A stretch of DNA of 64,000 nucleotides from the NCBI GenBank assembly GCA_038727515.1, contig JAVYVS010000002.1:243699-307698 (forward strand), given 5' to 3'. A model generated the notes under the pieces. It made no database searches and was not told the origin of the DNA. It worked only from the letters and a program-made list of their open reading frames with translations. This DNA is from Candidatus Methanomethylicia archaeon. Its GTDB lineage: Archaea; Thermoproteota; Methanomethylicia; Culexarchaeales; Culexarchaeaceae. Each line of letters starts with the position of its first letter. Position 1 is the first letter of the stretch. A program made the position numbers and the translations under genes. Positions 4,144 to 50,605 of the stretch are shown one piece after another.

Positions 4144-4203
4144 CAATATATCTTTATGGATAGCTTCATATAAGCATTTCCAAATAATAATTATTGATTT
4201 ACT

Positions 4204-26269: not shown

Positions 26270-26341
26270 TTTTCACATAGGTTCAAACAAAATTATTTTC
26301 ATTTTTATATATTTTTAAATATACTTATTAAAAAATGTTAC

Positions 26342-26412
26342 AAAAACTTTTTAAATCCCATACACAAATACTACTATTAGCACTCCAAAAAAACTAAAAT
26401 TAATTAAGGAGG
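26342..26412 (+). promoter_or_regulatory. BRE/TATA and strong RBS for membrane cassette 1
   Basis: AAAAACTTTTTAAAT at 26342-26356; AGGAGG at 26407-26412, 7 nt before the ATG. Confidence 0.55.
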
Positions 26413-26419
26413 AACTTAA

Positions 26420-27220
26420 ATGAACCAACTATTTGTAGAGCAAATACTATTTACGGGTCGTGGAAGCAGTTTAGTTATACTAATACTACTGATAGCATTC
26501 TTCTTCATAGGGCTACAGCTTGCAAAGATGGGTAGACCCCCCAAAATGAGGCGTTTACCAGCTTTAGATGCTATTGATGAAGCTATTGGTAGATGTGCAG
26601 AAATGGGCAAACCAGCACTATTCACACCAGGACTTACTGGAGATTTATATACTGAGCAAGGTCCTCAAATGGTTTCATCAATAACTATTTTAAGTTATAT
26701 TGCTGAAGGATGCGCAAAATACGATGTTCCATTAATCATTGATATGTGTGCAGGTGATGCAATACCACTCATGGATGAAACTCTTAGACTTGCATATTTA
26801 AAGCAAGGTAAACCCGAGAAGTATGATCCCAAAATGATAAACTATTATCCAGGACAGTCTCCAATGGTAACTGGAATACTTGGACATTTACAGCGTCTAC
26901 GCCCAGCAGCATTCTTCATGCTTGGAGGATTATATTATGAGAGTGTTGTGATAGGTGAAGCTGCAAATATGGTTGGATCTATGAACATTGGAGGTACAGT
27001 AAATACCCACCAATTACCATTCATTATAGCAACTTGTGATTATGTATTGATTGGTGAAGAGTTCTATGCTGCAAGCACATACTTATCAAAAGATCCATAT
27101 CAAATTGCAACGATAGCTGGTGAAGACTGGATAAAATTCATTTTAATAGCATTGTCTTTGCTAGGATTCATACTAGAACCACTAGGTATTAAAGTGATAA
27201 GTAATTTCTTGAGGTGGTGA
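26420..27220 (+). CDS. Membrane cassette 1 subunit A (DUF6754-like)
   Basis: N-terminal TM, RRLPALDAIDEAIGRCAEMGKP, HQLPF..DYVLIGEEFYAA, C-terminal TM; paralog of 42245-43054. Confidence 0.8.
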   Translation: MNQLFVEQILFTGRGSSLVILILLIAFFFIGLQLAKMGRPPKMRRLPALDAIDEAIGRCAEMGKPALFTPGLTGDLYTEQGPQMVSSITILSYIAEGCAKYDVPLIIDMCAGDAIPLMDETLRLAYLKQGKPEKYDPKMINYYPGQSPMVTGILGHLQRLRPAAFFMLGGLYYESVVIGEAANMVGSMNIGGTVNTHQLPFIIATCDYVLIGEEFYAASTYLSKDPYQIATIAGEDWIKFILIALSLLGFILEPLGIKVISNFLRW

Positions 27221-27888
27221 TGGTTATGGGTATGTCAGTTTTAAGAAGACCTGAAGTATTCATGTTTATTTCTGGTTTAGTTATGGGTTTAACCCTTTTT
27301 GGTTACTTCTTTAATGTACCACCAGTAATAGATACTGTAAATTGGCTTCAGACATTTGCAGTTCATATAAGTTATTTCGCTACATGGCTTGGATTCTTAA
27401 CTGCTGCAAGAATTCACATAACCAATATTCAACGTAAAACTCCTGGCATATGGTATTTCAGCATAATAATGTTTATATTTGCACTTGTCCCATTCTTTGC
27501 AGCTTTACCAGAAATAACAAAACCATCTGTTACCACAATGATATATACGTGGCCCTTCAATTGGGTTTATACACCATTAGGTGCAGCGCTATACGCAACA
27601 ACTGGATTCTACATATTCTCAGCAGCTTACAGAGCATTTAGAGCTAGAAGTTTTGAAGCAGCAGTATTACTGATTGCTGGTTGTCTCGTTATGCTTGGTA
27701 ATGCACCAATAGGTGAACTTATTTGGAGTCAAATACCTACAATTAATGAATGGCTTCAATTAACTGGACAAACTCCTGCTATGCGTGCTTTAAATATTAC
27801 TGCAGCTCTAGGTGTAGTTTACTTTGGATTAAGAGTTGTACTTGGTGCTGAGAAGAGGGTGATCACACTTGGTGCTGGAGGTGGATAG
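27214..27888 (+). CDS. Membrane cassette 1 subunit B, polytopic membrane protein
   Basis: About 6 hydrophobic segments; SAAYRAFRARSFEA; paralog of 43059-43712; start could be 27220-27232. Confidence 0.8.
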   Translation: MVMVMGMSVLRRPEVFMFISGLVMGLTLFGYFFNVPPVIDTVNWLQTFAVHISYFATWLGFLTAARIHITNIQRKTPGIWYFSIIMFIFALVPFFAALPEITKPSVTTMIYTWPFNWVYTPLGAALYATTGFYIFSAAYRAFRARSFEAAVLLIAGCLVMLGNAPIGELIWSQIPTINEWLQLTGQTPAMRALNITAALGVVYFGLRVVLGAEKRVITLGAGGG

Positions 27889-27890
27889 AA

Positions 27891-28757
27891 ATGGGTGAAT
27901 CTCAATCCATATGGGTAAAGCTGGGTGCTGTAGATAAACGTATACTATATTGGATATTATTTATATCATTGGCAATACCATACATACGTCCAATAGGATT
28001 GCCAGTATCAATTGCTGAAACGAGCTATGCTTTATACAATTTCATAGAAAAACTAGGTCCAAATGATGTTGCAGTTATGGCAATAGAATTTGGTGTTAGC
28101 GCTTGGTCTGAATGTTTACCTGGATTTGTAGCGGTTTCAAAGCATTTAGTGATGCGTGGTGTTAAGATAATATACTGGTGTGTTGGCTATACCGATTGTG
28201 ACTTAACTATGGAGGCTGTTAAAGCTAGAATTCCACAGCTTAAGGGTCCCGGCGAACCTGCAGGTCCCGGAGATTATAAGTATGGTGTTGATTGGGTTTA
28301 TATGGGTTATATTGCTGGTGGTGAAACTACTGTGGCTCAATTGGCTGATGATATACGTCAAGTTCTTAGAGCTGATAAATATGGTACTCCAATAGATCAA
28401 ATACCATTATTCCAAAATGTTAGGAATGCAAATGATATTAAGATTGTTATAGATTCTACAACTGGAGATTATGGTGATTACTATGTTAGGCAGTGGAGGA
28501 TTCGATATGGAACTGCTGTTGCTGAAATAGGTATAGCTATGAACTATTCAACGTTCATGGCATACTATCAAGCTGGATTAGCTGTAGGTGCATTGAAAGG
28601 TATTAGAGGAGCTGCTGAATATGAGAAGTTAATAGGACAATTAGGTGAAGCAACAACAAGTTTAGATGCACTTAATGTTTCACATCTACTTGTAATAATC
28701 GCAATTATAATGGCTAATTTAAGTTATGTAATGACTAGACGTAGAGGTGGTGGGTGA
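27891..28757 (+). CDS. Membrane cassette 1 subunit C (TM-soluble domain-TM)
   Basis: PIGLPVSI, YGVDWVYMGYIAGGET, GIRGAAEYE; paralog of 43715-44560. Confidence 0.8.
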   Translation: MGESQSIWVKLGAVDKRILYWILFISLAIPYIRPIGLPVSIAETSYALYNFIEKLGPNDVAVMAIEFGVSAWSECLPGFVAVSKHLVMRGVKIIYWCVGYTDCDLTMEAVKARIPQLKGPGEPAGPGDYKYGVDWVYMGYIAGGETTVAQLADDIRQVLRADKYGTPIDQIPLFQNVRNANDIKIVIDSTTGDYGDYYVRQWRIRYGTAVAEIGIAMNYSTFMAYYQAGLAVGALKGIRGAAEYEKLIGQLGEATTSLDALNVSHLLVIIAIIMANLSYVMTRRRGGG

Positions 28758-29398
28758 TGCCCTATCCAACAAATCCCGCTGATATAATTGGAGCTTGGGT
28801 TGGAGCATTCCTAACTTTAGCCATTTATAGCTATATCCTTTACAAAGAAACAAGAGTGTATAGGTTAGCTGAGTACATATATATTGGTATAGCCTTTGCT
28901 GTTTCATTAACTATCTCCGTTCAGCAGATTTGGAATCAAATAATAGTGCGTATACTTGGTGGCCAATACATTTACATTATTGGTGTAATATTGGGGTTAA
29001 TGCTATTAACACTACCATTCAAAAGTATACGTTGGATAAGCAGGTATCCAGTAATCTTCCTAATGGGATTAGGATTCGGCGTTACCATTAGAGGTGCACT
29101 TACCGCCAATATTGTTGGTCAGATAAGAGGTTCAATAACTCCACCTGGAGCTACTGCTACGATTCTTGATTGGTTTAACTTTGCATGGATATGCCTTGGA
29201 ACGTTACTCATAATATCATATTTCACATTTACAGTTGAACACACTGGATGGTATTATTACCCAACGAAACTTGGCAGATATATACTGTTACTTGGTTTAG
29301 GCGCATACTATGGTAATACTGTGCAATTCAGAATGACCATGCTTGCAGGCAGAGTTCAATTCTTATTACAAGTGTTCAAAATAATTCCATGGCCGTAA
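28754..29398 (+). CDS. Membrane cassette 1 subunit D, polytopic membrane protein
   Basis: TLAIYSY..LAEYIYIG, YFTFTV, GRVQFLL; paralog of 44557-45270. Confidence 0.8.
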   Translation: MMPYPTNPADIIGAWVGAFLTLAIYSYILYKETRVYRLAEYIYIGIAFAVSLTISVQQIWNQIIVRILGGQYIYIIGVILGLMLLTLPFKSIRWISRYPVIFLMGLGFGVTIRGALTANIVGQIRGSITPPGATATILDWFNFAWICLGTLLIISYFTFTVEHTGWYYYPTKLGRYILLLGLGAYYGNTVQFRMTMLAGRVQFLLQVFKIIPWP

Positions 29399-30732: not shown

Positions 30733-31263
30733 TTGGTGTTATATTTGTGGTCTGATGTGACTACGTTAAGTGAGAAATTTGATGGTAGCCTTAAAGAGAA
30801 AGTTACTCGTTTTCCATCAATATTAAATCCTTCTTCCTGTTTTCAATGTGGTAAATGTACTAGTGGATGTACAATTATGGTTTTAATGGAAAACTTTCCA
30901 CATAGAGTTGTTGATATGGTTAAATTAGGGTTAATCTCTGAACTTCTTAGATCTGATGTTATATGGGCTTGTACTCAGTGTCAGAAATGTAGAGATGCAT
31001 GTCCACAAAATGTTAATCCTTCTGAAATCTTTATTGTTTTAAGAAATATGAGTATAATTGAAGGTGGAAGTGTTCCAGAAGCTTATATGAATATGCTTTC
31101 AAAAGTTTTAGAGTCTGGTTATATTCAGGATGCGATAAGTGTAATCGGATCTGATGGTTTAATATATGATCGTTCAAAACTTGGTTTAGTAAATCTTAAG
31201 GGTCCTAGAGATATGAGTATCTTCCAAAATAATTGTATGGAAGCTTTTCAAAGGAGTGTTTAA
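30733..31263 (+). CDS. hdrC: Heterodisulfide reductase subunit C-like
   Basis: CFQCGKCTSGC and WACTQCQKCRDACP; exact start uncertain. Confidence 0.88.
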   Translation: MVLYLWSDVTTLSEKFDGSLKEKVTRFPSILNPSSCFQCGKCTSGCTIMVLMENFPHRVVDMVKLGLISELLRSDVIWACTQCQKCRDACPQNVNPSEIFIVLRNMSIIEGGSVPEAYMNMLSKVLESGYIQDAISVIGSDGLIYDRSKLGLVNLKGPRDMSIFQNNCMEAFQRSV

Positions 31264-31264
31264 A

Positions 31265-32122
31265 ATGGAATATATAATTTATCCCGGATGTTTAAGTGTT
31301 ACTGAGCAATATTCATATGAAGTTTCATGTATAAACGTTTTGAATCATTTAGGTGTAGATTTTACTTATGCTGAAAATGTTAATTGTTGCGGTTTTCCTC
31401 TTAGAAGTTTAAATTCCTTTGGATGGATATACTTATCTGCACGTTTAATTTCTGTTTTAGAAGATTACAATAAACCTTGCATACTGCTTTGTAATTGGTG
31501 TCACGCATCATTAACATATGCATTGAAAATTCTTAGTGAAAATGAAGAATTAACCTCTTGGGTTAACGATCTTTTATCAAAGGAGGATTTGAGATTTAAT
31601 GGTAAACTTGTATTCAAACATTTATTGGGATTCTTATATTACGATATTGGAATTGAGAAGTTGAAATCGAATATTAAGAGGTTTATGGGAGGTTTAAAAT
31701 TCTCTATACATCCTGGATGTCTATTCTTTAGACCTAGAGATATTGATAGACCTGATAACCCATATGAACCTAGAATTCTTAAAGATCTCGTTGAATTATT
31801 GGGTGCTGAAGCTAATGTACATTTAGACTGTTGTGGATGGGCTATTTACAAAACTAATAGTGATACTGGTTTAACTTTAGCTGGAAATAGAATTAAGACT
31901 GCTTATGGTACTGATGGAATAATTATATCGTGTCCTCATGGCGGTGAAATGTTGGATAAATATTATAATGATGCATGTAAAACCATTGGATTTAATGGTG
32001 AAGTTCCAGTATTATACTACACTCAGCTATTGGGTTTAGCCCTTGGAATTGACCCTAAGAATCTAGCTTTAAACCTAAATAAATCCCCAGTAAAATCACT
32101 ATTAGATAAGATTGGTGTTTGA
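31265..32122 (+). CDS. hdrB: Heterodisulfide reductase subunit B-like (CCG domains)
   Basis: YPGC, NCCG, LCNWC, HPGC, DCCG, SCPHG, PVLYYTQLLGLALG; ATG 31265 after GGAGTG. Confidence 0.88.
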   Translation: MEYIIYPGCLSVTEQYSYEVSCINVLNHLGVDFTYAENVNCCGFPLRSLNSFGWIYLSARLISVLEDYNKPCILLCNWCHASLTYALKILSENEELTSWVNDLLSKEDLRFNGKLVFKHLLGFLYYDIGIEKLKSNIKRFMGGLKFSIHPGCLFFRPRDIDRPDNPYEPRILKDLVELLGAEANVHLDCCGWAIYKTNSDTGLTLAGNRIKTAYGTDGIIISCPHGGEMLDKYYNDACKTIGFNGEVPVLYYTQLLGLALGIDPKNLALNLNKSPVKSLLDKIGV

Positions 32123-38450: not shown

Positions 38451-40208
38451 TTAGCCTTTTTTTATCCAACAATCATAGATTTTTCTCTCAAACTTAACTA
38501 TAACATGTTTATAATTCTTTTTGAATTCTAATCCATTTTTCTCCAATTCATTTAATATCTTCTTATATCTATCATGTAATTCTTTAAGTGCTTCTATTGC
38601 TTCTTCTAGTGTTGCTTCTTTAAATTTAATTTTTGTTTTTGGTTCACATTGTGAAAAAATGTTTAAGTCTGGTTCTATTATTTTACCTATTACAGCATAT
38701 CCTCCTGTAGTTTGTGCATCAGCCATTAATACTATTGGATTTCCATCCCCTGGAATTTGTATTGCACCTGGAAGTGTTCCACAACTTATTAATCTTCCAA
38801 CACCTTTAATTTTTGCTTCAATATCTTTCTCCAACCTATAACCCATTCTATTTATGTTGCTTGTAACTGTGAATTTTGTATTTGTGAAATCTTTAATCAT
38901 TTCCTCCGTGAAGTATTGGAGGTGTGGTCCTAATAAAATTCTAAATTCATTTTTCCTTTCTCTTTTCCAGTTTATTCTTCTTGCTGGACATGTTTCTATT
39001 ATTTCGTTAAACATATTTTTAGATGTAGTTATTATTGCATTTTTGGTTAGTTCTCTTCCAATTCCAGCAGTTAGATAATGTGATCTACTTCCAAGAATTA
39101 TAGGTTCATTTATTCCTCCAGCTATGGAAATATATGATATTAACCCATCTACTATTCTATTAATTTTAATCTTGCTCCCCTTCCTAACTGGTATGGCTCT
39201 CCAAGTTTCAATTTCTTCTCCATCAATTTCCCCCTCCACATTAGCTCCACAAATAGATATTATTATATCTTGTAAAACTGTAGCTTCAAAATTGCTTTGA
39301 AATATTTCTATACATGCACAATCAATATTGTTTCCAACAAGTATATTTGATGTTATAAATGATTCTTTATCCATAGCTCCAGATACTGGAACACCATACT
39401 TCCTATAACCTTCTCTACCAAGATCTTGTATTGATACACCTGGACCTGCTACATCAACCTTTAATACTGGTTCCCCTTCAATACTCAATGAAGTTTTAGG
39501 AGGTTCTTTTCTTAAAATTTCATCATATACCTCTCTACTTATTGGTTTGAATTTCACATAATCTCCAATTTTGAATATTGTGGGTGGATCTCTATTTGGA
39601 TCGAATAATTTTATTGGCGTTCTCCCTATGATTCTCCATCCTCCTGGGCTTTCAAATGGATATATTCCTGTTTGTGTTCCAGCTATTCCTACAGAACCTG
39701 CAGGTACCTTTATCCTTGGATTTTCCAATCTTGGTACAGCTATTTTTTCAGGGACTTCACCCATATATGGGAATCCTGGTATAAATCCAACCATATAAAC
39801 TCTGTATACTTGTTCTGAATGTATTTTAATGATTTCTTCAGGTTTTAGTTTAGTTATCTTTGATATCTCTTCTAAATCTAAACCTACATCATAATCATAT
39901 AATGTTGGTATCTCTATTATATTTCGTATTTCTTCTTCAACTATTTCTCTCTCAATTATATTCCCATATACTTCTAGAATTTTCTCTTCTAATTTTTTCC
40001 TATCTGTATTAAGTGGGTCTATTATGATTAGTATTGTTGTGTAAGCTGGTATTATCTCTTTAATACCGTAATCCCCCTTTAATTTCTCTATTTCATCACT
40101 AAGCATTTTTACCATAGTGTTTATTCTCTTATTTATTTCATTGCCAATTTCTATGAATACTCCATTTTCCCCCATGTGCTGCAAATTTATTTTGCGATTA
40201 AAAAGCAT
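38451..40208 (-). CDS. pxpBC: 5-oxoprolinase/allophanate hydrolase-like PxpB-PxpC fusion
   Basis: GFIPGFPYMG, PRLENPR, SPGGWRIIG (PxpB); QDLGR, SGAMD, RMGYRL, DAQTTGGY (PxpC). Confidence 0.9.
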   Translation of the reverse strand: MLFNRKINLQHMGENGVFIEIGNEINKRINTMVKMLSDEIEKLKGDYGIKEIIPAYTTILIIIDPLNTDRKKLEEKILEVYGNIIEREIVEEEIRNIIEIPTLYDYDVGLDLEEISKITKLKPEEIIKIHSEQVYRVYMVGFIPGFPYMGEVPEKIAVPRLENPRIKVPAGSVGIAGTQTGIYPFESPGGWRIIGRTPIKLFDPNRDPPTIFKIGDYVKFKPISREVYDEILRKEPPKTSLSIEGEPVLKVDVAGPGVSIQDLGREGYRKYGVPVSGAMDKESFITSNILVGNNIDCACIEIFQSNFEATVLQDIIISICGANVEGEIDGEEIETWRAIPVRKGSKIKINRIVDGLISYISIAGGINEPIILGSRSHYLTAGIGRELTKNAIITTSKNMFNEIIETCPARRINWKRERKNEFRILLGPHLQYFTEEMIKDFTNTKFTVTSNINRMGYRLEKDIEAKIKGVGRLISCGTLPGAIQIPGDGNPIVLMADAQTTGGYAVIGKIIEPDLNIFSQCEPKTKIKFKEATLEEAIEALKELHDRYKKILNELEKNGLEFKKNYKHVIVKFERKIYDCWIKKG

Positions 40209-40282
40209 TCGTATGGCACCTATTCAGAATCTATAAATCTATATATTAGTAGGTTAATCTTAAAAATTGTGAGTGTAATGCT

Positions 40283-40765
40283 ATGATATCTAATGTTAAG
40301 AGTTTTATTGCCGCAGTTATTGCTCTATATAATTATTTATTAGATTGTGGTTTAAGTAATATTCCTGAAGTCACATTATCCTCTGGAGATGATAAGTATA
40401 CTTTTACTGATGTTTCTCTGAGAAATAATATTCTAAATTTTAAGTTTAATGGTAAAGATTATTTTGTGAATTTTAGTGATAACGAAATTGAATTTTCTAC
40501 TGTTAAGCATGTTTTTGAAGAAGTTGAAAAGGAGGTTGAAGATTTTTTCATAGTTAAGTCTACGGTTTCCGGTAGGGTTATTAATGTTTTTGTCAATGAG
40601 GGAGATAATGTTAAAGAAAATGATTTACTATTGAAAATTGAAGCTATGAAAATGGAAATTGATATTAAATCCCCTGTGAATGGTGTTGTAGATAGAATCT
40701 TTATTTCTAAGGATATGGAGGTTAAATTGGGTTCACCATTAATCTCCATAAGGGTTTATAGGTGA
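40283..40765 (+). CDS. Biotin carboxyl carrier protein
   Basis: IEAMKMEID biotinylation motif in the C-terminal domain. Confidence 0.9.
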   Translation: MISNVKSFIAAVIALYNYLLDCGLSNIPEVTLSSGDDKYTFTDVSLRNNILNFKFNGKDYFVNFSDNEIEFSTVKHVFEEVEKEVEDFFIVKSTVSGRVINVFVNEGDNVKENDLLLKIEAMKMEIDIKSPVNGVVDRIFISKDMEVKLGSPLISIRVYR

Positions 40766-40772
40766 GGATTTC

Positions 40773-42179
40773 ATGGTTGAAATTGTGGATTTAACTTTAA
40801 GGGATGCTCATCAATCTCTACTTGCCACTAGATTTAGAACTGAAGATATGCTTCCAATACTTGATGTTATGGATGAAATAGGGTTTTATTCTATGGAGGT
40901 TTGGGGTGGTGCAACTTTTGATGCACCATTAAGATACTTAAATGAAGACCCGTGGATTAGACTTAAACTTATTAGAGAGAGAATTAAGAAGACTAAACTT
41001 CAAATGCTTCTAAGAGGTCAAAACCTCGTTGGCTATCGCCATTATCCAGATGACATATGCATAAAGTTTGTGGAAAAAGCTTATGATAATGGTATCGATA
41101 TATTCCGGATTTTTGATGCATTAAATGATTTAAGGAATGTTATGATAACTGCTAAGACAGCTAAGAAAATTGGAGCTGAAGTTCAATTATGCATGGTATA
41201 TACTATAAGCCCAATACATACAGTAGATTATTACATTAATTTAGCTAAGGAAATAGCATCTATGGATGTTGATTCCATATGTATAAAGGATATGTCTGGA
41301 ATATTGAAGCCATATACTGCATATGAGATTGTTAGAAGGATTAAAAGCGAAATTAATATTCCGGTGAATGTGCACTCACATACTACTGCAGGTTTAGCTC
41401 CAATAACATTAATTAAATCTGTTGAAGCTGGAGCAGACTACATAGACTGTACGCTATCCTCAATGTCCATGTATACGTCACATTCACCATTAGAATCCAT
41501 TGCATTATGTCTAGAAGATACACCGTATAAAGTTAAGATAAATTTAAATCTAGCTTTAAAAGCATCAAAATATTTCTGGGAGAAGAGGAAGAAGTATAGT
41601 GAATACGATTATGCTTTAAAAAATCCTCCAGTGGATGTAAGTGTATTGGAGCATCAGATTCCTGGAGGTATGCTTAGCAATTTATTAGAACAATTAAGAA
41701 TGCAAGGTGCAGAAGATAAATTAGATGAAGTTTTAAAGGAGGTTCCAAAGGTTAGAAGAGATTTGGGATATCCACCACTAGTAACACCATTATCACAAAT
41801 AGTTGGAACACAAGCAGTAATAAATGTTCTATCGGGGAAATCATACTCAATAGTAATAAAGGAAGTAAAAGATTATGTTAAAGGATTATATGGTAAACCT
41901 CCAGGTGAAATAGACCCAGAAATTGCAAAAATGGTTTTAGGAGATGAAAAGCCTATAAACGTAAGACCTGCAGAACTATTAGAACCAGCATATCAAAAAA
42001 TAGTTTCAGAAATTCCAAAGGAATTTATTGAAAAAGAGGAAGATTACATAACATATGCATTATTCCCAGATATAGCAATAAAATACTTTAAATTAAGAAG
42101 AGAAGCAAAAATCAAAATTCCTAAGACATATGAAATAATAATCGGAAATAAAACATTTAATGTATCACTAGAAAAGTAA
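40773..42179 (+). CDS. pycB: Pyruvate carboxylase subunit B / oxaloacetate decarboxylase alpha carboxyltransferase, lacking the biotinyl domain
   Basis: RDAHQSLLATR, WGGATFD, IKDMSG, HSH, HQIPGGM, GYPPLVTP; no AMKM. Confidence 0.9.
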   Translation: MVEIVDLTLRDAHQSLLATRFRTEDMLPILDVMDEIGFYSMEVWGGATFDAPLRYLNEDPWIRLKLIRERIKKTKLQMLLRGQNLVGYRHYPDDICIKFVEKAYDNGIDIFRIFDALNDLRNVMITAKTAKKIGAEVQLCMVYTISPIHTVDYYINLAKEIASMDVDSICIKDMSGILKPYTAYEIVRRIKSEINIPVNVHSHTTAGLAPITLIKSVEAGADYIDCTLSSMSMYTSHSPLESIALCLEDTPYKVKINLNLALKASKYFWEKRKKYSEYDYALKNPPVDVSVLEHQIPGGMLSNLLEQLRMQGAEDKLDEVLKEVPKVRRDLGYPPLVTPLSQIVGTQAVINVLSGKSYSIVIKEVKDYVKGLYGKPPGEIDPEIAKMVLGDEKPINVRPAELLEPAYQKIVSEIPKEFIEKEEDYITYALFPDIAIKYFKLRREAKIKIPKTYEIIIGNKTFNVSLEK

Positions 42180-42181
42180 CA

Positions 42182-42238
42182 TTTATATACTTCCCATTAT
42201 CAAAGGAATCATGACTTCATATTTTTAATTTTCGGGGG
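42182..42238 (+). promoter_or_regulatory. TATA box and RBS for membrane cassette 2
   Basis: TTTATATA at 42182-42189 after purine-rich GAAAAGTAACA; GGGGG at 42234-42238. Confidence 0.5.
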
Positions 42239-42244
42239 AAAACA

Positions 42245-43054
42245 ATGCTATCCTATCCATTATATCTATCACAAATTCTAAAGTCTGGTAGAGTTAGTGG
42301 ACTCGTTTTCTTATTGATAATAGCAATATCCGCAGCATACTTCATTAGGCGTGGTAAAGCTGGTAAGGTTCCATATATTAGGAGAGTTTCTGGTCTCGAT
42401 GCTATTGATGAAGCTATTGGAAGAGCCACTGAGATGGGACGTCCAGTATTTTGTTCGCATGGTATAGCAAGTATAGCTGATGCAACTTATGGTCCACAAA
42501 CCATCGCCGGTCTCTCAGTATTAGGTTATGTAGCTCAATTATGTGCTAAGTATGGTACTAGGCTAATAGTTCCAATTAGACAAGTTGCAGTTTATCCTAT
42601 TGCCAGAGAAATCGTTGAAAACGCATATAGAGCTGAAGGTAAATTAGATCAATTTAGAGTTGAAGACCTTGTATACCTCTCAGGTTGGCAGTTTGGTTAC
42701 TCTCTTGGTTATATGAGTTTAATGCAGAGGGAGAAGGCTGGTGCAAATATCATGATCGGTGGGTATTGGGCTGAATCATTGCAGTTGGCGGAGGTTGGGT
42801 ATATGGTTGGTGCTATGCAGGTTAGTGGAACAGCAAACACACACCAAATACCATTCTTCGTAGTAGCAACAGACTACTGCCTAATAGGAGAAGAAATCTT
42901 TGCAGCAGGAGCATACCTAAGCAAAGACCCAGCAATGATAGGAAGCATAGTAGCACAAGACATAGGAAAATTTATCTCTGTAGCTCTCATAGTTATAAGT
43001 TTCATTCTTCTGCTTGGTGGCTCTAAATTTATTGTAGACTTGTTGAGGTGGTAG
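42245..43054 (+). CDS. Membrane cassette 2 subunit A (DUF6754-like)
   Basis: IRRVSGLDAIDEAIGRATEMGRP, HQIPFF..DYCLIGEEIFAAGAYLS. Confidence 0.82.
   Translation: MLSYPLYLSQILKSGRVSGLVFLLIIAISAAYFIRRGKAGKVPYIRRVSGLDAIDEAIGRATEMGRPVFCSHGIASIADATYGPQTIAGLSVLGYVAQLCAKYGTRLIVPIRQVAVYPIAREIVENAYRAEGKLDQFRVEDLVYLSGWQFGYSLGYMSLMQREKAGANIMIGGYWAESLQLAEVGYMVGAMQVSGTANTHQIPFFVVATDYCLIGEEIFAAGAYLSKDPAMIGSIVAQDIGKFISVALIVISFILLLGGSKFIVDLLRW
42398..42420 (+). repeat. 23-bp exact direct repeat shared with 26567-26589 (paralogous subunit A genes)
   Basis: GATGCTATTGATGAAGCTATTGG at both sites, encoding DAIDEAIG. Confidence 0.85.
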
Positions 43055-43058
43055 ATGT

Positions 43059-43712
43059 ATGTCTTGGCTTAAACGTGTTGAAATTCCAATAGCAATAACA
43101 ATTATATGCGCACTAATACAAATAGTACCATACTTTATTAGCATGGGTGTTGATGTAGAGAATTTCCAAAGTAAATTTGTAAGTTGGAGTTTGGTTGTGG
43201 GTACTGGTGCATTAATGGTTGGTGCAATTTCTCTACTATTAATACATGTTCCAAAAATTACCCATCGACGTCAATACTGGGAGTATAGTCTACTTTTAAT
43301 GGTTTTCATGTTTATTATGGCATTACTTGGTTTACCAATTTCAGAAATTGGTTTAGGCTTAACGAATTATTGGTTTACTTTCCTATATAATAATGTTTTA
43401 ACGCCTCTTTCATCTAGCATGTATGCTATAATTGCATTCTATATTACTTCTGCGGCTTATAGAGCTTTTAAAGCTAGATCTTTAGAGGCTGGATTATTAT
43501 TGTTGGCTGGAAGTATACTGGTGTTTAGAAATGCTCCATTAGGAACATTCTTAATACCTGCTTCAGCGGATATAGGCGATTGGATATTCAACATACCAAA
43601 TATGGCTGTGAATAGAGCTATAATGATTGGTGGTGGGCTTGGAGCTATGATTCTTGGAATTAGAACCTTAATGGGTTATGAGAGAGGTTACTTAAGAGGT
43701 GGAGGTGAATAA
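43059..43712 (+). CDS. Membrane cassette 2 subunit B
   Basis: SAAYRAFKARSLEA, NAPLG; polytopic. Confidence 0.8.
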   Translation: MSWLKRVEIPIAITIICALIQIVPYFISMGVDVENFQSKFVSWSLVVGTGALMVGAISLLLIHVPKITHRRQYWEYSLLLMVFMFIMALLGLPISEIGLGLTNYWFTFLYNNVLTPLSSSMYAIIAFYITSAAYRAFKARSLEAGLLLLAGSILVFRNAPLGTFLIPASADIGDWIFNIPNMAVNRAIMIGGGLGAMILGIRTLMGYERGYLRGGGE

Positions 43713-43714
43713 AT

Positions 43715-44560
43715 ATGGGTAGTAACGTAAGCTTGTGGGAAAAGCTTGAAAATATTGATGTTAGGATAATATATTTAATATTGTGGATAGTAATTCTATG
43801 GCCCTTTATATACCCCATAGGTCTACCAGTAAGTATAGGTTCTTATGCTATATCGTATGCTAAGACCATCGATGAATTACCACCAGGTTCTATGGTTGTA
43901 GTATCCTTTGACTTCAGTCTTGGCGGCCTTGGAGAATTATATCCAATAGTTGTTGCTACCATGCACCACCTATTCACTAAACCCATTAAGATTGCTATTA
44001 TCGCCATATGGGTTGACGGTCCCATAGTGGCTAATATGGTGTTAAATGAGTTGAAACCTGAAAATCCTCCATATAATAAGAAGTACGGTGTGGATTGGAT
44101 TTTCCTCGGATACGTGCCTGGTGGGGAAACTGCCATGGCTGCTTTAGGCAGAGACTTCTGGAATACACTTCCATTAGATTACATTTACAAGAAACCTGTT
44201 AGTGAATATCCAATAATGCAAAAATTAAGGTCTGCAGCAGATGTAAATTTACTTGTAAGTTTTGAAACTGGTACTCCTGGAGCTGATGAATGGGTTAGGC
44301 AATGGTATGTACCATATAAAGTTCCAATGATTGTTGGTTGCATCGGGGTTATGGCACCCACAATTGTTCCATATGTAGCTGGTGGTCAAGTCAAAGGTAT
44401 GCTTCCAGGTTTAAGAGCTGCTGCTGAATATGAACTGATTATTGGTAGAAAGGGACTAGGTGTTGCCTCCGCAGACGCTCTCTCCACAAGTCATATGGTG
44501 GTAATAATCTTTGTAATTATAGGTAATATTTCGTATATAGCTAGGAGGCGGGTCAAATGA
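43715..44560 (+). CDS. Membrane cassette 2 subunit C
   Basis: PIGLPVSI, YGVDWIFLGYVPGGET, GLRAAAEYE. Confidence 0.8.
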   Translation: MGSNVSLWEKLENIDVRIIYLILWIVILWPFIYPIGLPVSIGSYAISYAKTIDELPPGSMVVVSFDFSLGGLGELYPIVVATMHHLFTKPIKIAIIAIWVDGPIVANMVLNELKPENPPYNKKYGVDWIFLGYVPGGETAMAALGRDFWNTLPLDYIYKKPVSEYPIMQKLRSAADVNLLVSFETGTPGADEWVRQWYVPYKVPMIVGCIGVMAPTIVPYVAGGQVKGMLPGLRAAAEYELIIGRKGLGVASADALSTSHMVVIIFVIIGNISYIARRRVK

Positions 44561-45270
44561 GCGTGGAGTTATTTGGAATATTTTTAGGGGTATTCTTTAC
44601 CCTTGCAATATACACATTTCTATATAGGGAGAATCCATATTCTAGAATCGCTGAATACGTATTTATAGGTGCAGCCACTGGTTATGGTATTGCATATGAT
44701 TTAGATTGGTTGAGATCTCAATGGACTGGGACATGGTCTAAGACTACTGGAGATGCTATAGCTTTTGTATTTGCATTACTCTTAAGCCTATTATGGTACT
44801 TCAGATTTTCTAGGAAATATTTCTTCCTATATAGAATTCCATTGGCTATAACCGTTGGAACAACTATTGGAATCGCACTTAGATCTGTAGTATTTGCACA
44901 AGTATTAGAGCAAGTTAGAGCTACAGCTTCCTTAACTGTTATTGGTGTTGATGCCTGGACAGCTTTCAATAACCTAGTTACAATAGCCATCGTTGTATGT
45001 ACACTACTATACTTCACATTTACAGTTAGTCAGACAGCTGCACCTTGGAAACCCATTAATAAATTTGCTAGATATTCTATGATGATTGGCTTTGGATCTG
45101 CATATGGATACACCGTGTTGACAAGGATGTCATTGTTTATCGGTAGAGTTCAATTCTTACTTGGTGTACCTCCAAATCCAGTTGAAGCTAAAATGATGTT
45201 TCCATGGGTTGCATTGTTCATGCTTGCTACAATGATTGGTTACGATTACTACAAGAAGAGCAAGAAATAA
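44557..45270 (+). CDS. Membrane cassette 2 subunit D
   Basis: TLAIYTFLYREN..IAEYVFIG, YFTFTV, GRVQFLL. Confidence 0.8.
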   Translation: MSVELFGIFLGVFFTLAIYTFLYRENPYSRIAEYVFIGAATGYGIAYDLDWLRSQWTGTWSKTTGDAIAFVFALLLSLLWYFRFSRKYFFLYRIPLAITVGTTIGIALRSVVFAQVLEQVRATASLTVIGVDAWTAFNNLVTIAIVVCTLLYFTFTVSQTAAPWKPINKFARYSMMIGFGSAYGYTVLTRMSLFIGRVQFLLGVPPNPVEAKMMFPWVALFMLATMIGYDYYKKSKK

Positions 45271-46970: not shown

Positions 46971-49361
46971 ATGGTTGATAGTGTTAGAATAGGCGTTTAT
47001 GTTTGTCATTGTGGTGGGAATATCTCTAATGTTGTTAATATAAGTGAGGTTATAAATGCAATAAGGAATGTTGAAGGTGTTGTAATTGTTAGGGATAATG
47101 AACATGTATGTTCTGAAGCTGGTCAAAGGGAGATTCAAGAAGATATAAAGAGGCTTAATTTAAATAGAGTTGTCATTGCTGCTTGTTCCCCAAAGTTTCA
47201 TGGCCCCACATTTATGAAACTTATTGAAGAATCTGGTTTAAATCCATATCTCTTTGAAATGGTTAATATTAGGGAGCAGGATTCTTGGGTTCATTCCAAT
47301 GATCCTAAGGGTGCTACGATTAAAGCTATTGACCAGATAATGGCTGCAATTGCTAAAGTCAAATTTAATGAGCCTTTACAGCCTAAGGAGGTTAAGATTG
47401 GTAATAGGGTTTTAGTTATTGGTGGTGGTATTTCTGGTATTCAGACTGCTCTAGATCTAGCTGATTCAGGTTGTAAAGTTTACTTGGTTGAAAGGGAGCC
47501 GATGATTGGTGGTAGAATGGCTCAATTAAGTTATACATTTCCAACAGATGATTGTTCTTTATGTATTTTATCGCCGAAGATGGCTGCCGTATATAATCAT
47601 CCAAATATAACATTGTTAACTTATAGTGAAGTTGAAGATGTTAGTGGTAGTGTAGGTGATTTTCATGTTAAAGTTAAAGTTAAACCTAGATATGTTGATA
47701 TGGATAAGTGTGTAGCTTGTGGAATTTGTGCATCTAAGTGTCCAGCATCTGCTCCAGATGAATTTAATTATGGTCTTAGAACTAGAAGAGCTATTTATGT
47801 TCCACATGAGATGGCTGTTCCATACAAGTATCTCATAGATTCAAAATCTTGTTTATATTTCCTGAAGGGTATATGTAGAGTTTGTGAGAGGGTTTGTCCT
47901 CAAAAAGCTGTGAATTTTAATGATTCAGAGAGGATTTTGGATTTAGTTGTTGATGCTATTGTTGTCGCCACTGGTTATGATCCTTTTGATGCAACTAAAC
48001 TTAAACAATATGGTTATGGTGTTTACAAGAATGTTATTATAGCACCACAATTGGAGAGGATGGTTATGCCTGTAGGTCCAACTGGTGGTAAGGTCGTTAG
48101 ATTATCTGATGGTCAACTCGCCAAGAAGATTGCATTTATACATTGTGTTGGTTCTAGAGATGAACAAATTGGTAGACCTGGATGTTCTAGAGTTTGCTGT
48201 ATGTATAGTATTAAGCAGGCTATGACTCTTAAAAGGCAGGATGTAACTAGGGATGTACATTTATTTTATATTGATATTAGAGCTTATGGTAAAGGTTTTG
48301 AAGAATACTATAGTAGAGCTCAAGATTTAGGTGTTAAATTCATTAGGGGGAAGGTTAGTGAAGTTATTGAGGATCCAGTTACAAATAAGCTTATTGTTAG
48401 AGCTGAAGATACTTTGACTGGAAGGTTTATTGAAGATGAATTTGACTTAGTTGTTTTGTCTGTTGGTCTCGTCCCTTCCCATGGCTCTGAGGATTTAGCT
48501 AAAAAGTTGAAGTTGAATATTGGACCAGATGGATTCTTTTTAGAAGCTCATCCAAAGTATAGGCCTGTGGATACCCTTAGGGAGGGTGTATTTATATGTG
48601 GTTGTGCTCAGGGACCAAAGGATATTGCTGATTCAGTGGCTCAAGCTAGTGCTGCTGCTGGAAGGGTTTTAAGATTGATTAGTCAGGGTAAGATTCTTGT
48701 TGAACCTATAAAAGCTTATGTTTTAAGTGATTTATGTAATGGCTGTGGTATATGTATTGATAAATGTCCTCTTGGAGCCATAAGTATGGTTGATGGGAAA
48801 GCCATTATTAGTGATGCTTTATGCGTTGGTTGTGGGAGTTGTATTCCATACTGTCCACAAAGTGCAATTGAATTGAGGCATTACACTGAAAAACAGATTT
48901 TAAGTCAAATTGAAGCTGCCCTTAAAAGTAAGGGTGAGGGTGAAATTAGAGTTATAGCATTCTTTGATGATTCATGTACTTATAGAGCTGCAGATCTTGC
49001 TGGTACTAGTAGATTGATTTATGATGATAGAGTTAGAGTTATAAGTGTTCCTAGCGCTAGTAGACTTACACCTAGAATTATTTTAAGTGCATTTAAGTAT
49101 GGTGCTGATGGTGTTTTCATTGGAGATTGTCTTCCAGGAGCTTCACCATATCATCCAAAAGTTTTAGATGTAATTAATGATGTTATTAGGGATGTGAGAA
49201 CTCAGATGAGAAAGTTTAGGATTGATGCTAGGAGATTGAAGTTTGATACTATTGCTGTTGATATGGCTGAGAGATTAGTTAAAGATTTAGAGGATTTGAT
49301 TTCTATTATAGAGAGGTTGGGGCCTTTAAAGGTTGAGGAGAGAATTAGAATTAAGGTTTAG
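46971..49361 (+). CDS. hdrA: HdrA fused to a C-terminal MvhD-like domain
   Basis: CHCGG, GGGISG, TFPTDDCSLC, CSRVCCMYSIK; from about 48943 YRAADLAG..AFKYGADGV MvhD-like domain. Confidence 0.92.
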   Translation: MVDSVRIGVYVCHCGGNISNVVNISEVINAIRNVEGVVIVRDNEHVCSEAGQREIQEDIKRLNLNRVVIAACSPKFHGPTFMKLIEESGLNPYLFEMVNIREQDSWVHSNDPKGATIKAIDQIMAAIAKVKFNEPLQPKEVKIGNRVLVIGGGISGIQTALDLADSGCKVYLVEREPMIGGRMAQLSYTFPTDDCSLCILSPKMAAVYNHPNITLLTYSEVEDVSGSVGDFHVKVKVKPRYVDMDKCVACGICASKCPASAPDEFNYGLRTRRAIYVPHEMAVPYKYLIDSKSCLYFLKGICRVCERVCPQKAVNFNDSERILDLVVDAIVVATGYDPFDATKLKQYGYGVYKNVIIAPQLERMVMPVGPTGGKVVRLSDGQLAKKIAFIHCVGSRDEQIGRPGCSRVCCMYSIKQAMTLKRQDVTRDVHLFYIDIRAYGKGFEEYYSRAQDLGVKFIRGKVSEVIEDPVTNKLIVRAEDTLTGRFIEDEFDLVVLSVGLVPSHGSEDLAKKLKLNIGPDGFFLEAHPKYRPVDTLREGVFICGCAQGPKDIADSVAQASAAAGRVLRLISQGKILVEPIKAYVLSDLCNGCGICIDKCPLGAISMVDGKAIISDALCVGCGSCIPYCPQSAIELRHYTEKQILSQIEAALKSKGEGEIRVIAFFDDSCTYRAADLAGTSRLIYDDRVRVISVPSASRLTPRIILSAFKYGADGVFIGDCLPGASPYHPKVLDVINDVIRDVRTQMRKFRIDARRLKFDTIAVDMAERLVKDLEDLISIIERLGPLKVEERIRIKV

Positions 49362-49372
49362 GGGGTGAAGTT

Positions 49373-49744
49373 GTGTTTAAAGGTTTAGCTCAAACAGTTT
49401 ATGAATTAAGTGGGAAGAATCCATATCTATGTTTTCAATGTGGAATTTGTAGTAGTAGTTGTCCTATGATTAAAGATATGGACATACCTCCACATCAAGT
49501 TATACGTATGATTCAATTAGATATACAAGAAGTTTTGAATTGTAAAACTATATGGGTTTGTGCATCTTGTAATACATGTACAGCTAGATGTCCAAGAGAT
49601 GTAGATCCAGCTAGAATTATAAATGTCCTTAGAACTATTATGCAGAGGAAGAATGTTTATCCATTGGATTTAAGGAAAGTTAAGGGTTTAGATGAGATTC
49701 CTCAAATAGCTTTGATTTCTGCATCTAGAAAGCTTACGGGGTGA
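49373..49744 (+). CDS. hdrC: Heterodisulfide reductase subunit C-like
   Basis: CFQCGICSSSCP, WVCASCNTCTARCP. Confidence 0.9.
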   Translation: MFKGLAQTVYELSGKNPYLCFQCGICSSSCPMIKDMDIPPHQVIRMIQLDIQEVLNCKTIWVCASCNTCTARCPRDVDPARIINVLRTIMQRKNVYPLDLRKVKGLDEIPQIALISASRKLTG

Positions 49745-49750
49745 TGGGTT

Positions 49751-50605
49751 TTGAAGTTTATGTATTATCCTGGTTGTTCAGTTAAAGATTATGCTAAGGT
49801 TTATGAAGAAACTGCATTATCAGTTTTAAAATTGTTCAATGTTGAACTTGTTGAACTTAATAGATGGAATTGTTGTGGCGTTGTTTATGAGCATGCTACT
49901 GATGCTATTATGCAGCACATTGCATCTCTTAGAGATCTTATAAGAGCTCAAGAATTTATGAATGATATTGGGGATAATAGACTTGTAACGCTTTGTTCAA
50001 TGTGTTATAATACTTTGAAGAAAGTTAATGAAATTGTCATAAATGATTCTGAGAAACTCAAGAATTTATGTGATTATATGGATGATGAACCAAAGTATAA
50101 TTGTGGTGTTGATGTTAAATATATTCTTGAATTGATTGTTGATGATAGTATAATAGGACTTAATAAGATCAGTAGTAACGTTAAAAGAGACCTTAAGAGT
50201 TTGAAGGTTGCACCCTTCTATGGATGTGCAATACTGAGGCCTAAAGGTATTGGAATTGATGATCCTGAGGATCCACATATATTGTCAGATTTAATATCTA
50301 GTTTAGGCGCTAAACCCATTAAATTCCCATATGAAAAGAAGTGTTGTGGTTCTTATAATGTTGTTTATGATAGAAGTATAGTTGAGAGAACCGTTAGTGA
50401 AATTGTTAAAGCTGCATCTAGGTGGGGTGCTGACATCATTATAACTACATGTCCACTTTGCCACTATAATTTAAACCTTGTTAAGAGCAAATTTAATATA
50501 CCTACAATATACTTTACTGAGTTGATGGCTTATGCCCTTGGTATTGATGATAAAATTCCACCGGAAACTCTTTTAATATTAAGAAGTAAATTTGGTGGTG
50601 GATGA
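49751..50605 (+). CDS. hdrB: Heterodisulfide reductase subunit B-like
   Basis: YPGC, NCCG, LCSMC, FYGC, KCCG, TCPLC all intact. Confidence 0.9.
   Translation: MKFMYYPGCSVKDYAKVYEETALSVLKLFNVELVELNRWNCCGVVYEHATDAIMQHIASLRDLIRAQEFMNDIGDNRLVTLCSMCYNTLKKVNEIVINDSEKLKNLCDYMDDEPKYNCGVDVKYILELIVDDSIIGLNKISSNVKRDLKSLKVAPFYGCAILRPKGIGIDDPEDPHILSDLISSLGAKPIKFPYEKKCCGSYNVVYDRSIVERTVSEIVKAASRWGADIIITTCPLCHYNLNLVKSKFNIPTIYFTELMAYALGIDDKIPPETLLILRSKFGGG

What the first reader, a model, noticed from the sequence alone, without database searches (positions are those of the whole stretch)
26420..29398. Uncharacterised four-gene membrane cassette (DUF6754-like) present twice: candidate new transporter family
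Seen: four tightly coupled membrane-protein genes (A-B-C-D, gaps of 4 nt or less or overlaps) with their own promoter. The cassette recurs in the same order at 42245-45270 with conserved motifs in every subunit (A: LDAIDEAIGR.EMG.P and HQ.PF..DY.LIGEE; B: SAAYRAF.ARS.EA; C: YGVDW..GY..GGET and AAEYE; D: TLAIY..AEY..IG and GRVQFLL). I see no Walker A, Fe-S, heme or FAD motif, so it is neither an ABC ATPase module nor an evident redox complex. The copies are well diverged yet both intact, so both are under selection. Inference: an obligate four-subunit complex, most plausibly a solute importer with paralogs of different specificity. Copy 1 follows an acyl-CoA dehydrogenase; copy 2 lies among PxpBC, a carboxyltransferase and DUF917. 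I know of no assigned function.
Basis: partly seen in the sequence, partly recalled or inferred. Interest (0 to 1): 0.85.

Follow-up and report, generated by a model that had tools for sequence, protein, structure and literature searches.

The report
Unstudied DUF6754 four-protein membrane unit
The two four-gene membrane cassettes are real and are two of eight copies in this small archaeal genome of a widespread, never-studied membrane unit that nearly always occurs with one actin-fold ATPase module encoded elsewhere; it is probably a new kind of uptake machine, but nobody has tested that.

Summary
Observation confirmed and enlarged. Both cassettes (26420-29398 and 42245-45270) encode A (Pfam DUF6754), B, C and D in the same order, 31-41% identical pairwise. 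The 1.59 Mb genome holds eight such cassettes, not two. The A-B-C-D order is kept in 72 of 80 loci from many bacterial phyla.

B, C and D match no Pfam, NCBIfam or PDB family. AlphaFold models of A and C (pLDDT 94-95) each show a Rossmann-like domain held between two membrane helices, with no specific structural relative. Charge counts place A's domain in the cytoplasm and C's domain outside.

These flank the cassette in 21 of 80 loci and are encoded once, elsewhere, in this genome. They co-occur with DUF6754 in two phylum samples (3 of 3 full carriers against 0 of 147; 51 both, 7 one only, 143 neither).

Best reading (about 0.45): substrate-specific membrane units of a modular, ATP-driven uptake system for peptide- or amide-type compounds. 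The function is untested. The link of copy 2 to BCCP and a carboxyltransferase does not recur elsewhere. This scan has noted the same system on other DNA (324 notes).

The parts
26270..26419 (+). AT-rich spacer upstream of copy 1, with TATA-like boxes and a GGAGG 8 nt before the ATG (putative promoter and ribosome-binding site)
   Evidence: Read directly from the sequence; not tested.
26420..27220 (+). A1: DUF6754 subunit. N-terminus outside, one TM helix, a roughly 200-aa Rossmann-like cytoplasmic domain, then a C-terminal TM helix.
   Evidence: PF20539 E 1.4e-67. AF2 model pLDDT 94. Family-wide K+R count of 4.9 just after TM1. Bacterial relatives have a signal peptide and fn3/PKD domains N-terminal to TM1.
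27214..27888 (+). B1: polytopic membrane subunit, six predicted TM helices, N- and C-termini inside, SAAYRAF.AR motif. The true start is probably the ATG at 27232.
   Evidence: No Pfam, NCBIfam or PDB match.
27891..28757 (+). C1: both termini cytoplasmic, with a roughly 230-aa Rossmann-like domain outside the cell held between two TM helices.
   Evidence: AF2 model pLDDT 95. K+R count is 4.1 before TM1 and 3.3 after TM2, against 1.2 and 0.7 on the domain side. No family match. The family has 5649 representative clusters.
28754..29398 (+). D1: polytopic membrane subunit (six or seven TM helices, N-terminus probably outside), GR.QFLL motif near the C-terminus.
   Evidence: No family match.
42180..42244 (+). 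65-nt spacer between the OadA-like carboxyltransferase gene and copy 2, with a TTTATATA box and a GGGGGA before the ATG
   Evidence: Read directly from the sequence; not tested.
42245..43054 (+). A2: DUF6754 subunit of copy 2. It is 80% identical to the A gene of the cassette at contig C1:157967.
   Evidence: PF20539 E 2.9e-82.
43059..43712 (+). B2: paralog of B1
   Evidence: 31% identity, E 1e-22.
43715..44560 (+). C2: paralog of C1
   Evidence: 36% identity, E 3e-58.
44557..45270 (+). D2: paralog of D1, with an extra C-terminal hydrophobic segment that resembles the N-terminal helix of D1
   Evidence: 31% identity, E 2e-25, plus a second short match.

Best explanation
Each cassette encodes one hetero-oligomeric inner-membrane unit.
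- C displays a Rossmann-like domain outside the cell and is the candidate substrate receptor.
- B and D are polytopic and are the candidate translocation path.
- A places a very conserved Rossmann-like domain in the cytoplasm and is the candidate coupling domain.

The eight diverged units of this archaeon would be substrate-specific modules served in trans by one shared cytoplasmic set: a GlmL/MutL-like actin-fold (ASKHA) ATPase, a roughly 380-aa barrel-sandwich/KOW-like partner and a roughly 130-aa small protein. ATP hydrolysis by that set would drive uptake of peptide-, amino-acid- or cyclic-amide-type compounds.

Shown here: the gene sets, their conservation, the co-occurrence, the folds and the topology. 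Inferred: physical assembly, ATP coupling, direction of transport and substrate class.
For: 1. Obligate set. All 8 cassettes in this genome keep the A-B-C-D order, as do 72 of 80 loci from Bacillota, Cloacimonadota, WOR-3, Zixibacteria, Planctomycetota and others. Tandem arrays of 2-4 cassettes occur.

2. Partner set.
- Y134, the GlmL-like ATPase and X373 lie beside the cassette in 21 of 80 loci, often with overlapping or 1-4 nt junctions.
- This genome has exactly one GlmL-like/X373 pair and one Y134, all away from the eight cassettes.
- In 151 genomes of the archaeal phylum, full-length GlmL-like genes occur only in the three genomes with full DUF6754 genes. In one of those genomes both lie on a single 6.5 kb contig.
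- In 201 Planctomycetota genomes the counts are 51 with both, 2 with DUF6754 only, 5 with GlmL-like only and 143 with neither.
- The ATPase keeps the ASKHA phosphate and adenosine motifs.

3. Topology. A's core is cytoplasmic and C's domain is outside.

4. Conservation. A is the most conserved subunit (mean column identity 45%, against 35, 34 and 30% for B, C and D). This fits a shared cytoplasmic partner and variable substrate-facing parts.

5. Context points to uptake and catabolism.
- Amidohydrolases are the commonest other neighbour (8 of 148 flanking ORFs), followed by DUF885 and M81 peptidase.
- A TonB-dependent receptor lies directly downstream in 5 loci.
- In this genome the cassettes sit beside M28, M20, M14 and S49 peptidases, an amidohydrolase, DUF885 and GDPD.
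- The genome has only 4 BPD_transp_1 and 2 APC-permease matches.
Against: - No experiment exists, and no paper mentions the family.
- No subunit resembles a known transporter in sequence or fold. The fold lists are flat and generic.
- I know of no case where an actin-fold ATPase energises a transporter (own knowledge).
- GlmL relatives are thought to be mutase chaperones, so the co-occurring ATPase could act on something else.
- Only about a quarter of loci have the ATPase adjacent.
- 2 of 53 Planctomycetota carriers and 1 of 5 other carriers showed no GlmL-like gene, although these genomes may be incomplete.
- The neighbour enrichment is weak: most neighbours are unrelated.
- Long Ig-like, PKD or fn3 arrays on A in diderm bacteria are unusual for solute importers.
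- B and D were not folded, so no pore or binding site has been seen.
Confidence: 0.45

Rival explanations
1. It is an ATP-driven membrane machine that is not a nutrient importer. The A-D unit with the actin-fold ATPase would export, insert, assemble or remodel something in the envelope (lipid, glycan or protein), or sense and signal across the membrane.
For: - In diderm phyla A carries outward-facing fn3, PKD, Ig or beta-propeller arrays of up to about 1000 aa. This is more typical of envelope-spanning machines than of solute carriers.
- Known membrane partners of actin-fold ATPases (MreB, FtsA, PilM, GspL; own knowledge) are assembly machines, not transporters.
- Most neighbours are unrelated to catabolism.
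Against: - Eight diverged copies in a 1.6 Mb genome, and tandem arrays elsewhere, fit substrate-specific modules better than a housekeeping envelope machine.
- The short form works without any extension in archaea and monoderms.
- The recurrent neighbours are hydrolases and TonB-dependent receptors.
Confidence: 0.25
2. It is a self-sufficient secondary (ion-coupled) solute importer. On this reading the ATPase set is a metabolic or regulatory companion, not the motor.
For: - The cassette has no ATPase motif.
- About three quarters of loci lack an adjacent ATPase.
- B and D have conserved charged or polar residues in or near membrane helices: R191 in B; E40, R97 and Q123 in D.
Against: - The tight genome-level co-occurrence with the GlmL-like ATPase in two unrelated phyla, and the translationally coupled junctions X373-A, are hard to explain for a mere companion.
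- The most conserved subunit is the cytoplasmic domain of A, which a simple carrier would not need.
Confidence: 0.15
3. Copy 2 is the membrane, ion-pumping partner of a biotin-dependent decarboxylase formed with the BCCP and OadA-like carboxyltransferase genes just upstream. It would replace the missing OadB-type beta subunit.
For: - BCCP (40283-40765) and the OadA-like carboxyltransferase (40773-42179) lie on the same strand, 65 nt before A2.
- The genome (93.6% complete) shows no OAD_beta match and no biotin carboxylase C-domain match, so the biotin enzyme lacks both usual partners.
Against: - No biotin or OadA family appears among the 25 commonest families in 148 neighbours of cassettes in other genomes.
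- The other seven cassettes here, including the 80% identical one, have unrelated neighbours.
- The spacer carries its own TATA-like box.
- The co-occurring partner across phyla is the actin-fold ATPase, not BCCP.
Confidence: 0.04

Closest known systems
Pfam DUF6754 (PF20539)
   Same: Subunit A of both copies is a full-length member.
   Different: The Pfam entry covers A only and gives no function. B, C, D and the partner proteins X373 and Y134 have no family at all.
Group II ECF transporters (many S components sharing one EcfAA'T module), and ABC importers that share one ATPase such as MsiK
   Same: The logic is alike: many diverged substrate-side membrane units (8 here) against a single cytoplasmic ATPase set encoded elsewhere.
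   Different: There is no sequence or fold relation. There is no ABC ATPase, no Walker A and no EcfT or S-component family. The ATPase is actin-fold. Each unit has four proteins. Coupling has not been shown.
GlmL/MutL accessory protein of glutamate (methylaspartate) mutase and the GlmL-related ornithine-degradation protein (PF13941, NF040745, NF040744)
   Same: The co-occurring ATPase matches PF13941 over its full length (E about 1e-121) and keeps the ASKHA nucleotide motifs.
   Different: It scores far below the NCBIfam cut-offs (209 against 475 and 208 against 600 bits). It has an extra C-terminal part of roughly 125 aa. It is paired with X373 rather than with mutase subunits, and it tracks DUF6754 across genomes.
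Na+-translocating biotin decarboxylases (OadABG, GcdABCD, MmdABCDE)
   Same: Copy 2 sits directly after BCCP and an OadA-like carboxyltransferase, where a membrane subunit would be expected.
   Different: B and D are not OAD_beta. The linkage is not seen in other genomes.
Rossmann-like regulatory or nucleotide-binding domains attached to membrane transporters (KTN/RCK of Trk/Ktr/MthK; domain III of transhydrogenase PntB) and Sir2
   Same: These are the best structural neighbours of the cytoplasmic domain of A (Z 8.7-10.2, 114-148 residues aligned, rmsd 2.7-5.5 A) and partly of C. MTH777 (1kjn) matches both A and C.
   Different: The lists are flat and no match stands out. Identity is 4-16%, there is no GxGxxG motif, and Foldseek found nothing at E <= 1e-3. 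This is a shared common fold, not shown membership.

Membership tests
Pfam DUF6754 (PF20539) | Full-length match above the gathering score (27 bits) | tested here: met
   A1 scores 228 bits and A2 276 bits, covering profile positions 4-256 of 257.
   Met in 8 of 8 cassettes in this genome and in 72 of 80 loci elsewhere. Of the 8 exceptions, 5 are cut by contig ends.
ABC transporter | Nucleotide-binding subunit (PF00005, Walker A) in or fused to the unit | tested here: not met
   No PF00005 match at E <= 0.1 in any of the 8 proteins. No Walker A motif.
ABC, TRAP, TTT, MFS and other described transporter families | A membrane subunit matches a described permease family | tested here: not met
   B, C and D have no Pfam or NCBIfam match above noise and no PDB sequence match. 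The folds of B and D were not predicted, so a remote structural relation is untested.
Na+-translocating decarboxylase, beta subunit (OAD_beta, PF03977) | A membrane subunit belongs to PF03977 | tested here: not met
   No match in the cassette proteins or anywhere in the genome (genome 93.6% complete).
Na+-translocating decarboxylase system | Recurrent linkage of the membrane genes to BCCP and carboxyltransferase genes | tested here: not met
   Seen only at copy 2. Absent from the 25 commonest families among 148 neighbours in other genomes and from the other seven cassettes here.
GlmL/MutL family (partner ATPase, encoded outside the window) | PF13941 match; NCBIfam GlmL or Or-4 equivalog cut-off; placement between B12-mutase subunit genes | tested here: inconclusive
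   PF13941 is met (404 bits). The equivalog cut-offs are not met (209.5 against 475 and 207.8 against 600; TIGR01319 143 against 204). The four flanking genes are X373, an M55 peptidase, a decarboxylase and a PINA-type ATPase, not mutase subunits. It is therefore a distinct subfamily.
NAD(P)-binding Rossmann domains (KTN/RCK, Sir2, PntB domain III) for the A domain | A specific structural match standing above the background, and a nucleotide-binding glycine motif | tested here: inconclusive
   Top Z is 10.2 in a flat list with 154 chains at Z >= 8. There is no GxGxxG motif.
Periplasmic substrate-binding proteins (for the outside domain of C) | Two-lobed SBP fold | tested here: inconclusive
   The model shows one alpha/beta domain. 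The best match is Z 9.8 (MTH777), and a sugar-binding protein appears only at Z 8.0.

The most novel reading that the evidence does not exclude
This is a new class of primary active transporter. Many substrate-specific four-protein membrane units (A-D) are energised in trans by one shared actin-fold (GlmL-like) ATPase with its X373 and Y134 partners. The logic resembles ECF or PTS systems, but the parts are unrelated and the ATPase fold is not known to drive transport.
Probability: 0.4. Interest if true: 0.9.

Novelty: categorically new. Interest (0 to 1): 0.8.

Why it matters
If the reading holds, a major uptake or membrane machine of many uncultured anaerobic lineages has gone unrecognised. 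Carriers include Cloacimonadota, WOR-3, Zixibacteria, Fermentibacteria, Planctomycetota, many Bacillota and some archaea.

The C subunit alone has 5649 representative clusters at 50% identity and no family model. This archaeon spends about 1.5% of its genome on eight copies.

Metabolic reconstructions of these organisms currently leave these genes blank, so their nutrient uptake is probably under-called. An actin-fold ATPase that powers a membrane unit would also be a new energy-coupling principle.

The system is directly testable, because Symbiobacterium thermophilum, a cultured species, carries it.

Tried and rejected
- **Complex prediction of A+B+C+D.** The verdict was 'no answer'. The score was 0.80 in all three runs, 0.00 with A replaced, and 0.79 with C replaced by an unrelated protein. 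This is evidence neither for nor against binding.
- **Foldseek against the PDB for A and C.** Nothing at E <= 1e-3.
- **VIA-align wide search.** It gave only flat lists of generic Rossmann-like folds.
- **Sequence and profile searches of the PDB.** No hits for A, B, C, D, the GlmL-like ATPase or X373.
- **hhalign of A against C and of B against D.** No detectable homology. The models of A and C nevertheless share the same order of elements: TM helix, six beta-alpha units, TM helix.
- **Literature.** No paper holds 'DUF6754', 'PF20539' or 'PF13941', and there was nothing useful on GlmL.
- **Phylogeny of A.** Only the quick tree finished. The archaeal copies fall among short-form Bacillota sequences as three pairs and a singleton, and a single origin is neither shown nor excluded.
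- **Decarboxylase-pump idea for copy 2.** Kept only as a low-odds rival; see the rival explanations.
- **RNA hairpin as the cause of the wobble-base switch in A2.** Rejected: fold z-score -0.55 and only short imperfect inverted repeats.
Full report
**1. What is in the window**

ORF listing and translation confirm two co-linear sets of four genes on the + strand, with junctions of 4 nt or less or overlaps.
- Copy 1: 26420-27220, 27214-27888, 27891-28757, 28754-29398.
- Copy 2: 42245-43054, 43059-43712, 43715-44560, 44557-45270.

The copies are 41% (A), 31% (B), 36% (C) and 31% (D) identical, with E-values from 5e-66 to 1e-22. The quoted motifs are present, three of them with slightly different spacing, and there is no Walker A or CxxC motif. 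A is a full-length member of Pfam DUF6754. B, C and D match nothing in Pfam or NCBIfam.

- An acyl-CoA dehydrogenase lies before copy 1.
- A PxpBC-type fusion lies on the opposite strand upstream of copy 2.
- BCCP and an OadA-like carboxyltransferase lie on the same strand before copy 2.
- A DUF917/S-Me-THD gene converges on copy 2.

The gene content around them (Hdr, MvhD, HMG-CoA reductase, ComB, translin) and 33% G+C point to an archaeon.

**2. The cassette occurs eight times**

A search of the whole 1.586 Mb assembly found eight DUF6754 genes. BLAST of all eight window proteins against every ORF showed that each DUF6754 gene is followed by B, C and D in the same order. One copy has A interrupted by a TAA stop. 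Copy 2 has an 80% identical sister at C1:157967. The other pairs are 28-46% identical.

Neighbours differ from cassette to cassette. They include S49, M28, M20 and M14 peptidases, an amidohydrolase, DUF885, a glycerophosphodiesterase, DAP epimerase and an MFS carrier.

**3. Distribution and integrity elsewhere**

A pattern scan of one genome per prokaryotic species gave more than 547 relatives. The best 80 come mostly from uncultured Bacillota (including Symbiobacterium), Cloacimonadota, WOR-3, Zixibacteria, Fermentibacteria, Planctomycetota, Ignavibacteria and others.

HMMs built from this genome's paralogs recover A-B-C-D in order in 72 of the 80 loci, giving 83 complete cassettes. Of the 8 exceptions, 5 are cut by contig ends. 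Tandem arrays of two to four cassettes occur.

A profile of C finds 5649 representative clusters in 1.84 billion, almost all 270-300 aa long.

**4. Structure and topology**

With 63-68-sequence alignments, AlphaFold2 gives confident models of A (pLDDT 94) and C (pLDDT 95). Both have an N-terminal membrane helix, a three-layer alpha/beta domain of six beta-alpha units, and a C-terminal membrane helix.

Neither model has a specific structural relative:
- Foldseek finds nothing at E <= 1e-3.
- The exhaustive aligner gives flat lists at Z of about 8-10. These contain Sir2, KTN/RCK domains, transhydrogenase domain III, SDRs and MTH777, which matches both A and C.

Profile comparison finds no sequence homology between A and C or between B and D.

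Family-averaged K+R counts support the following topology:
- A has its N-terminus outside and its domain in the cytoplasm (4.9 K+R in the 15 residues after TM1).
- C is the opposite, with K+R-rich termini (4.1 and 3.3) and poor domain flanks (1.2 and 0.7), so its domain is outside.
- B has six helices with both ends inside.
- D probably starts outside.

Independent support for A comes from diderm phyla. There A begins with a signal peptide and an fn3-like domain, or with PKD, Ig or beta-propeller arrays of up to about 1000 aa, before TM1.

The invariant residues of A are G57, R58, E61, G169, G186, D207, Y208 and E214. Most of them lie at or just after the C-terminal ends of the strands, where Rossmann-like domains usually bind ligands. 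This is my inference.

**5. The missing partners**

Clustering the flanking ORFs of the 80 loci revealed three recurrent proteins:
- a roughly 620-aa PF13941 'MutL' (GlmL-like) protein;
- a roughly 375-aa protein without a family, called X373 here;
- a roughly 130-aa protein, called Y134 here.

The order Y134 - GlmL-like - X373 - A-B-C-D, often with overlapping junctions, or A-D followed by GlmL-like and X373 in Bacillota, is seen in 21 of 80 loci.

This archaeon has exactly one GlmL-like/X373 pair (contig C1, about 552.7-555.8 kb, next to an M55 aminopeptidase) and one Y134 gene, none of them near a cassette. X373 shows only weak RnfC_N barrel-sandwich and KOW signals. The ATPase keeps the actin-fold nucleotide motifs but scores far below NCBI's GlmL and Or-4 cut-offs.

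Co-occurrence was checked in three samples:
- **Archaeal phylum, 151 genomes.** DUF6754 occurs in four genomes: 8, 7 and 1 copies, plus one fragment at a contig end. Full-length GlmL-like genes occur in exactly the three full carriers. In the third carrier, X373, the ATPase, a 140-aa ORF, A, B and C share one 6.5 kb contig.
- **Planctomycetota, 201 genomes.** 51 genomes have both, 2 have DUF6754 only, 5 have GlmL-like only (one weak, several fragments) and 143 have neither.
- **Other carriers.** Four of five had the ATPase.

Related genomes are not independent, so these counts are descriptive. The pattern nevertheless repeats in two unrelated phyla.

**6. Reading**

The shown facts are:
- an obligate four-protein membrane unit;
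- opposite-facing Rossmann-like domains on A and C;
- many diverged copies per genome;
- the cytoplasmic A subunit as the most conserved part (45%, against 30-35% for the others);
- a co-occurring ATPase set that is single-copy in this genome.

The simplest model that fits them is a modular system in which variable membrane units share one cytoplasmic motor.

Uptake is favoured by several observations:
- amidohydrolases, DUF885 and peptidases are the commonest other neighbours;
- TonB-dependent receptors lie directly downstream in five loci;
- this genome has few canonical importers: 4 BPD_transp_1 and 2 APC matches;
- the carriers are, to my knowledge, mostly fermentative, proteolytic organisms (own knowledge, not tested here).

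All of this is circumstantial. I put the full model at about 0.45, a non-import machine at 0.25, a stand-alone secondary carrier at 0.15, and the decarboxylase-pump idea for copy 2 at 0.04.

The last idea is attractive locally. The genome shows no OadB and no biotin carboxylase. However, the link to biotin genes does not recur elsewhere, and the spacer has its own TATA-like box.

**7. Comparison and novelty**

The only family membership is DUF6754, for A. No component has a solved relative by sequence, and no paper in the library mentions the family.

The nearest analogies are logical, not evolutionary: group II ECF transporters, ABC systems that share one ATPase, and the PTS.

Earlier notes of this scan describe the same system on other DNA and in other windows of this genome. 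I reached the ATPase link before reading them, and my counts are my own.

**8. Limits**

- B, D, the ATPase and X373 were not folded.
- The complex job gave no verdict.
- Only a quick tree was obtained.
- No function has been measured by anyone.

Noticed in passing
window 42779-42970 (inside A2): There is an abrupt switch in the third codon position. The 48 codons from 42827 to 42970 end in A or C in 46 cases, and the roughly 30 codons before them mostly end in G or T. The 80% identical paralog at C1:157967 shows the same pattern; the other A genes do not (a third copy reaches 40 of 48). Only about ten other long ORFs in the genome reach this level. No RNA hairpin explains it (z -0.55).. Unexplained.
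   Followed up: partly
window 38451-42179: An orphan biotin set: a PxpBC-type fusion (CT_C_D + CT_A_B) divergent from BCCP and an OadA/PycB-like carboxyltransferase. The genome (93.6% complete) shows no biotin carboxylase C-domain match and no OAD_beta match. This could be an ATP-independent transcarboxylase or decarboxylase.
   Followed up: partly
genome contig C1:631790-634778 (locus L014:6991-9979): The sixth cassette has its A gene split into 149-aa and 101-aa ORFs by an in-frame TAA, while B, C and D are intact. It may be a decaying copy or a sequencing error.
   Followed up: no
window 46971-51306: An HdrA-like protein with a fused MvhD/FlpD domain (796 aa) is followed by HdrC- and HdrB-like genes (4Fe-4S, CCG) and a 2Fe-2S/4Fe-4S protein. 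A second HdrC/HdrB-like pair lies at 30733-32122, converging on a LarA-like gene.
   Followed up: no
window 44557-45270 (D2) against 28754-29398 (D1): D2 carries an extra C-terminal hydrophobic segment (residues about 205-236) that aligns with the N-terminal helix of D1. This hints at a duplicated or permuted helix in this subunit.
   Followed up: no
loci L059, L083, L088; proteins P0009-P0128: In diderm bacteria the A subunit is extended at the N-terminus by a signal peptide plus fn3-like, PKD, Ig-like or PQQ beta-propeller domains, giving 470-1350 aa in total. The long forms make one well-supported clade in the quick tree.
   Followed up: partly
locus L096:4858-5694 and 3570-4847 (genome C1, about 550.6-552.7 kb): The single GlmL-like/X373 pair of this genome is followed on the same strand by an M55 D-aminopeptidase and an Orn/DAP/Arg decarboxylase, and is preceded by a PINA-type ATPase.
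   Followed up: no
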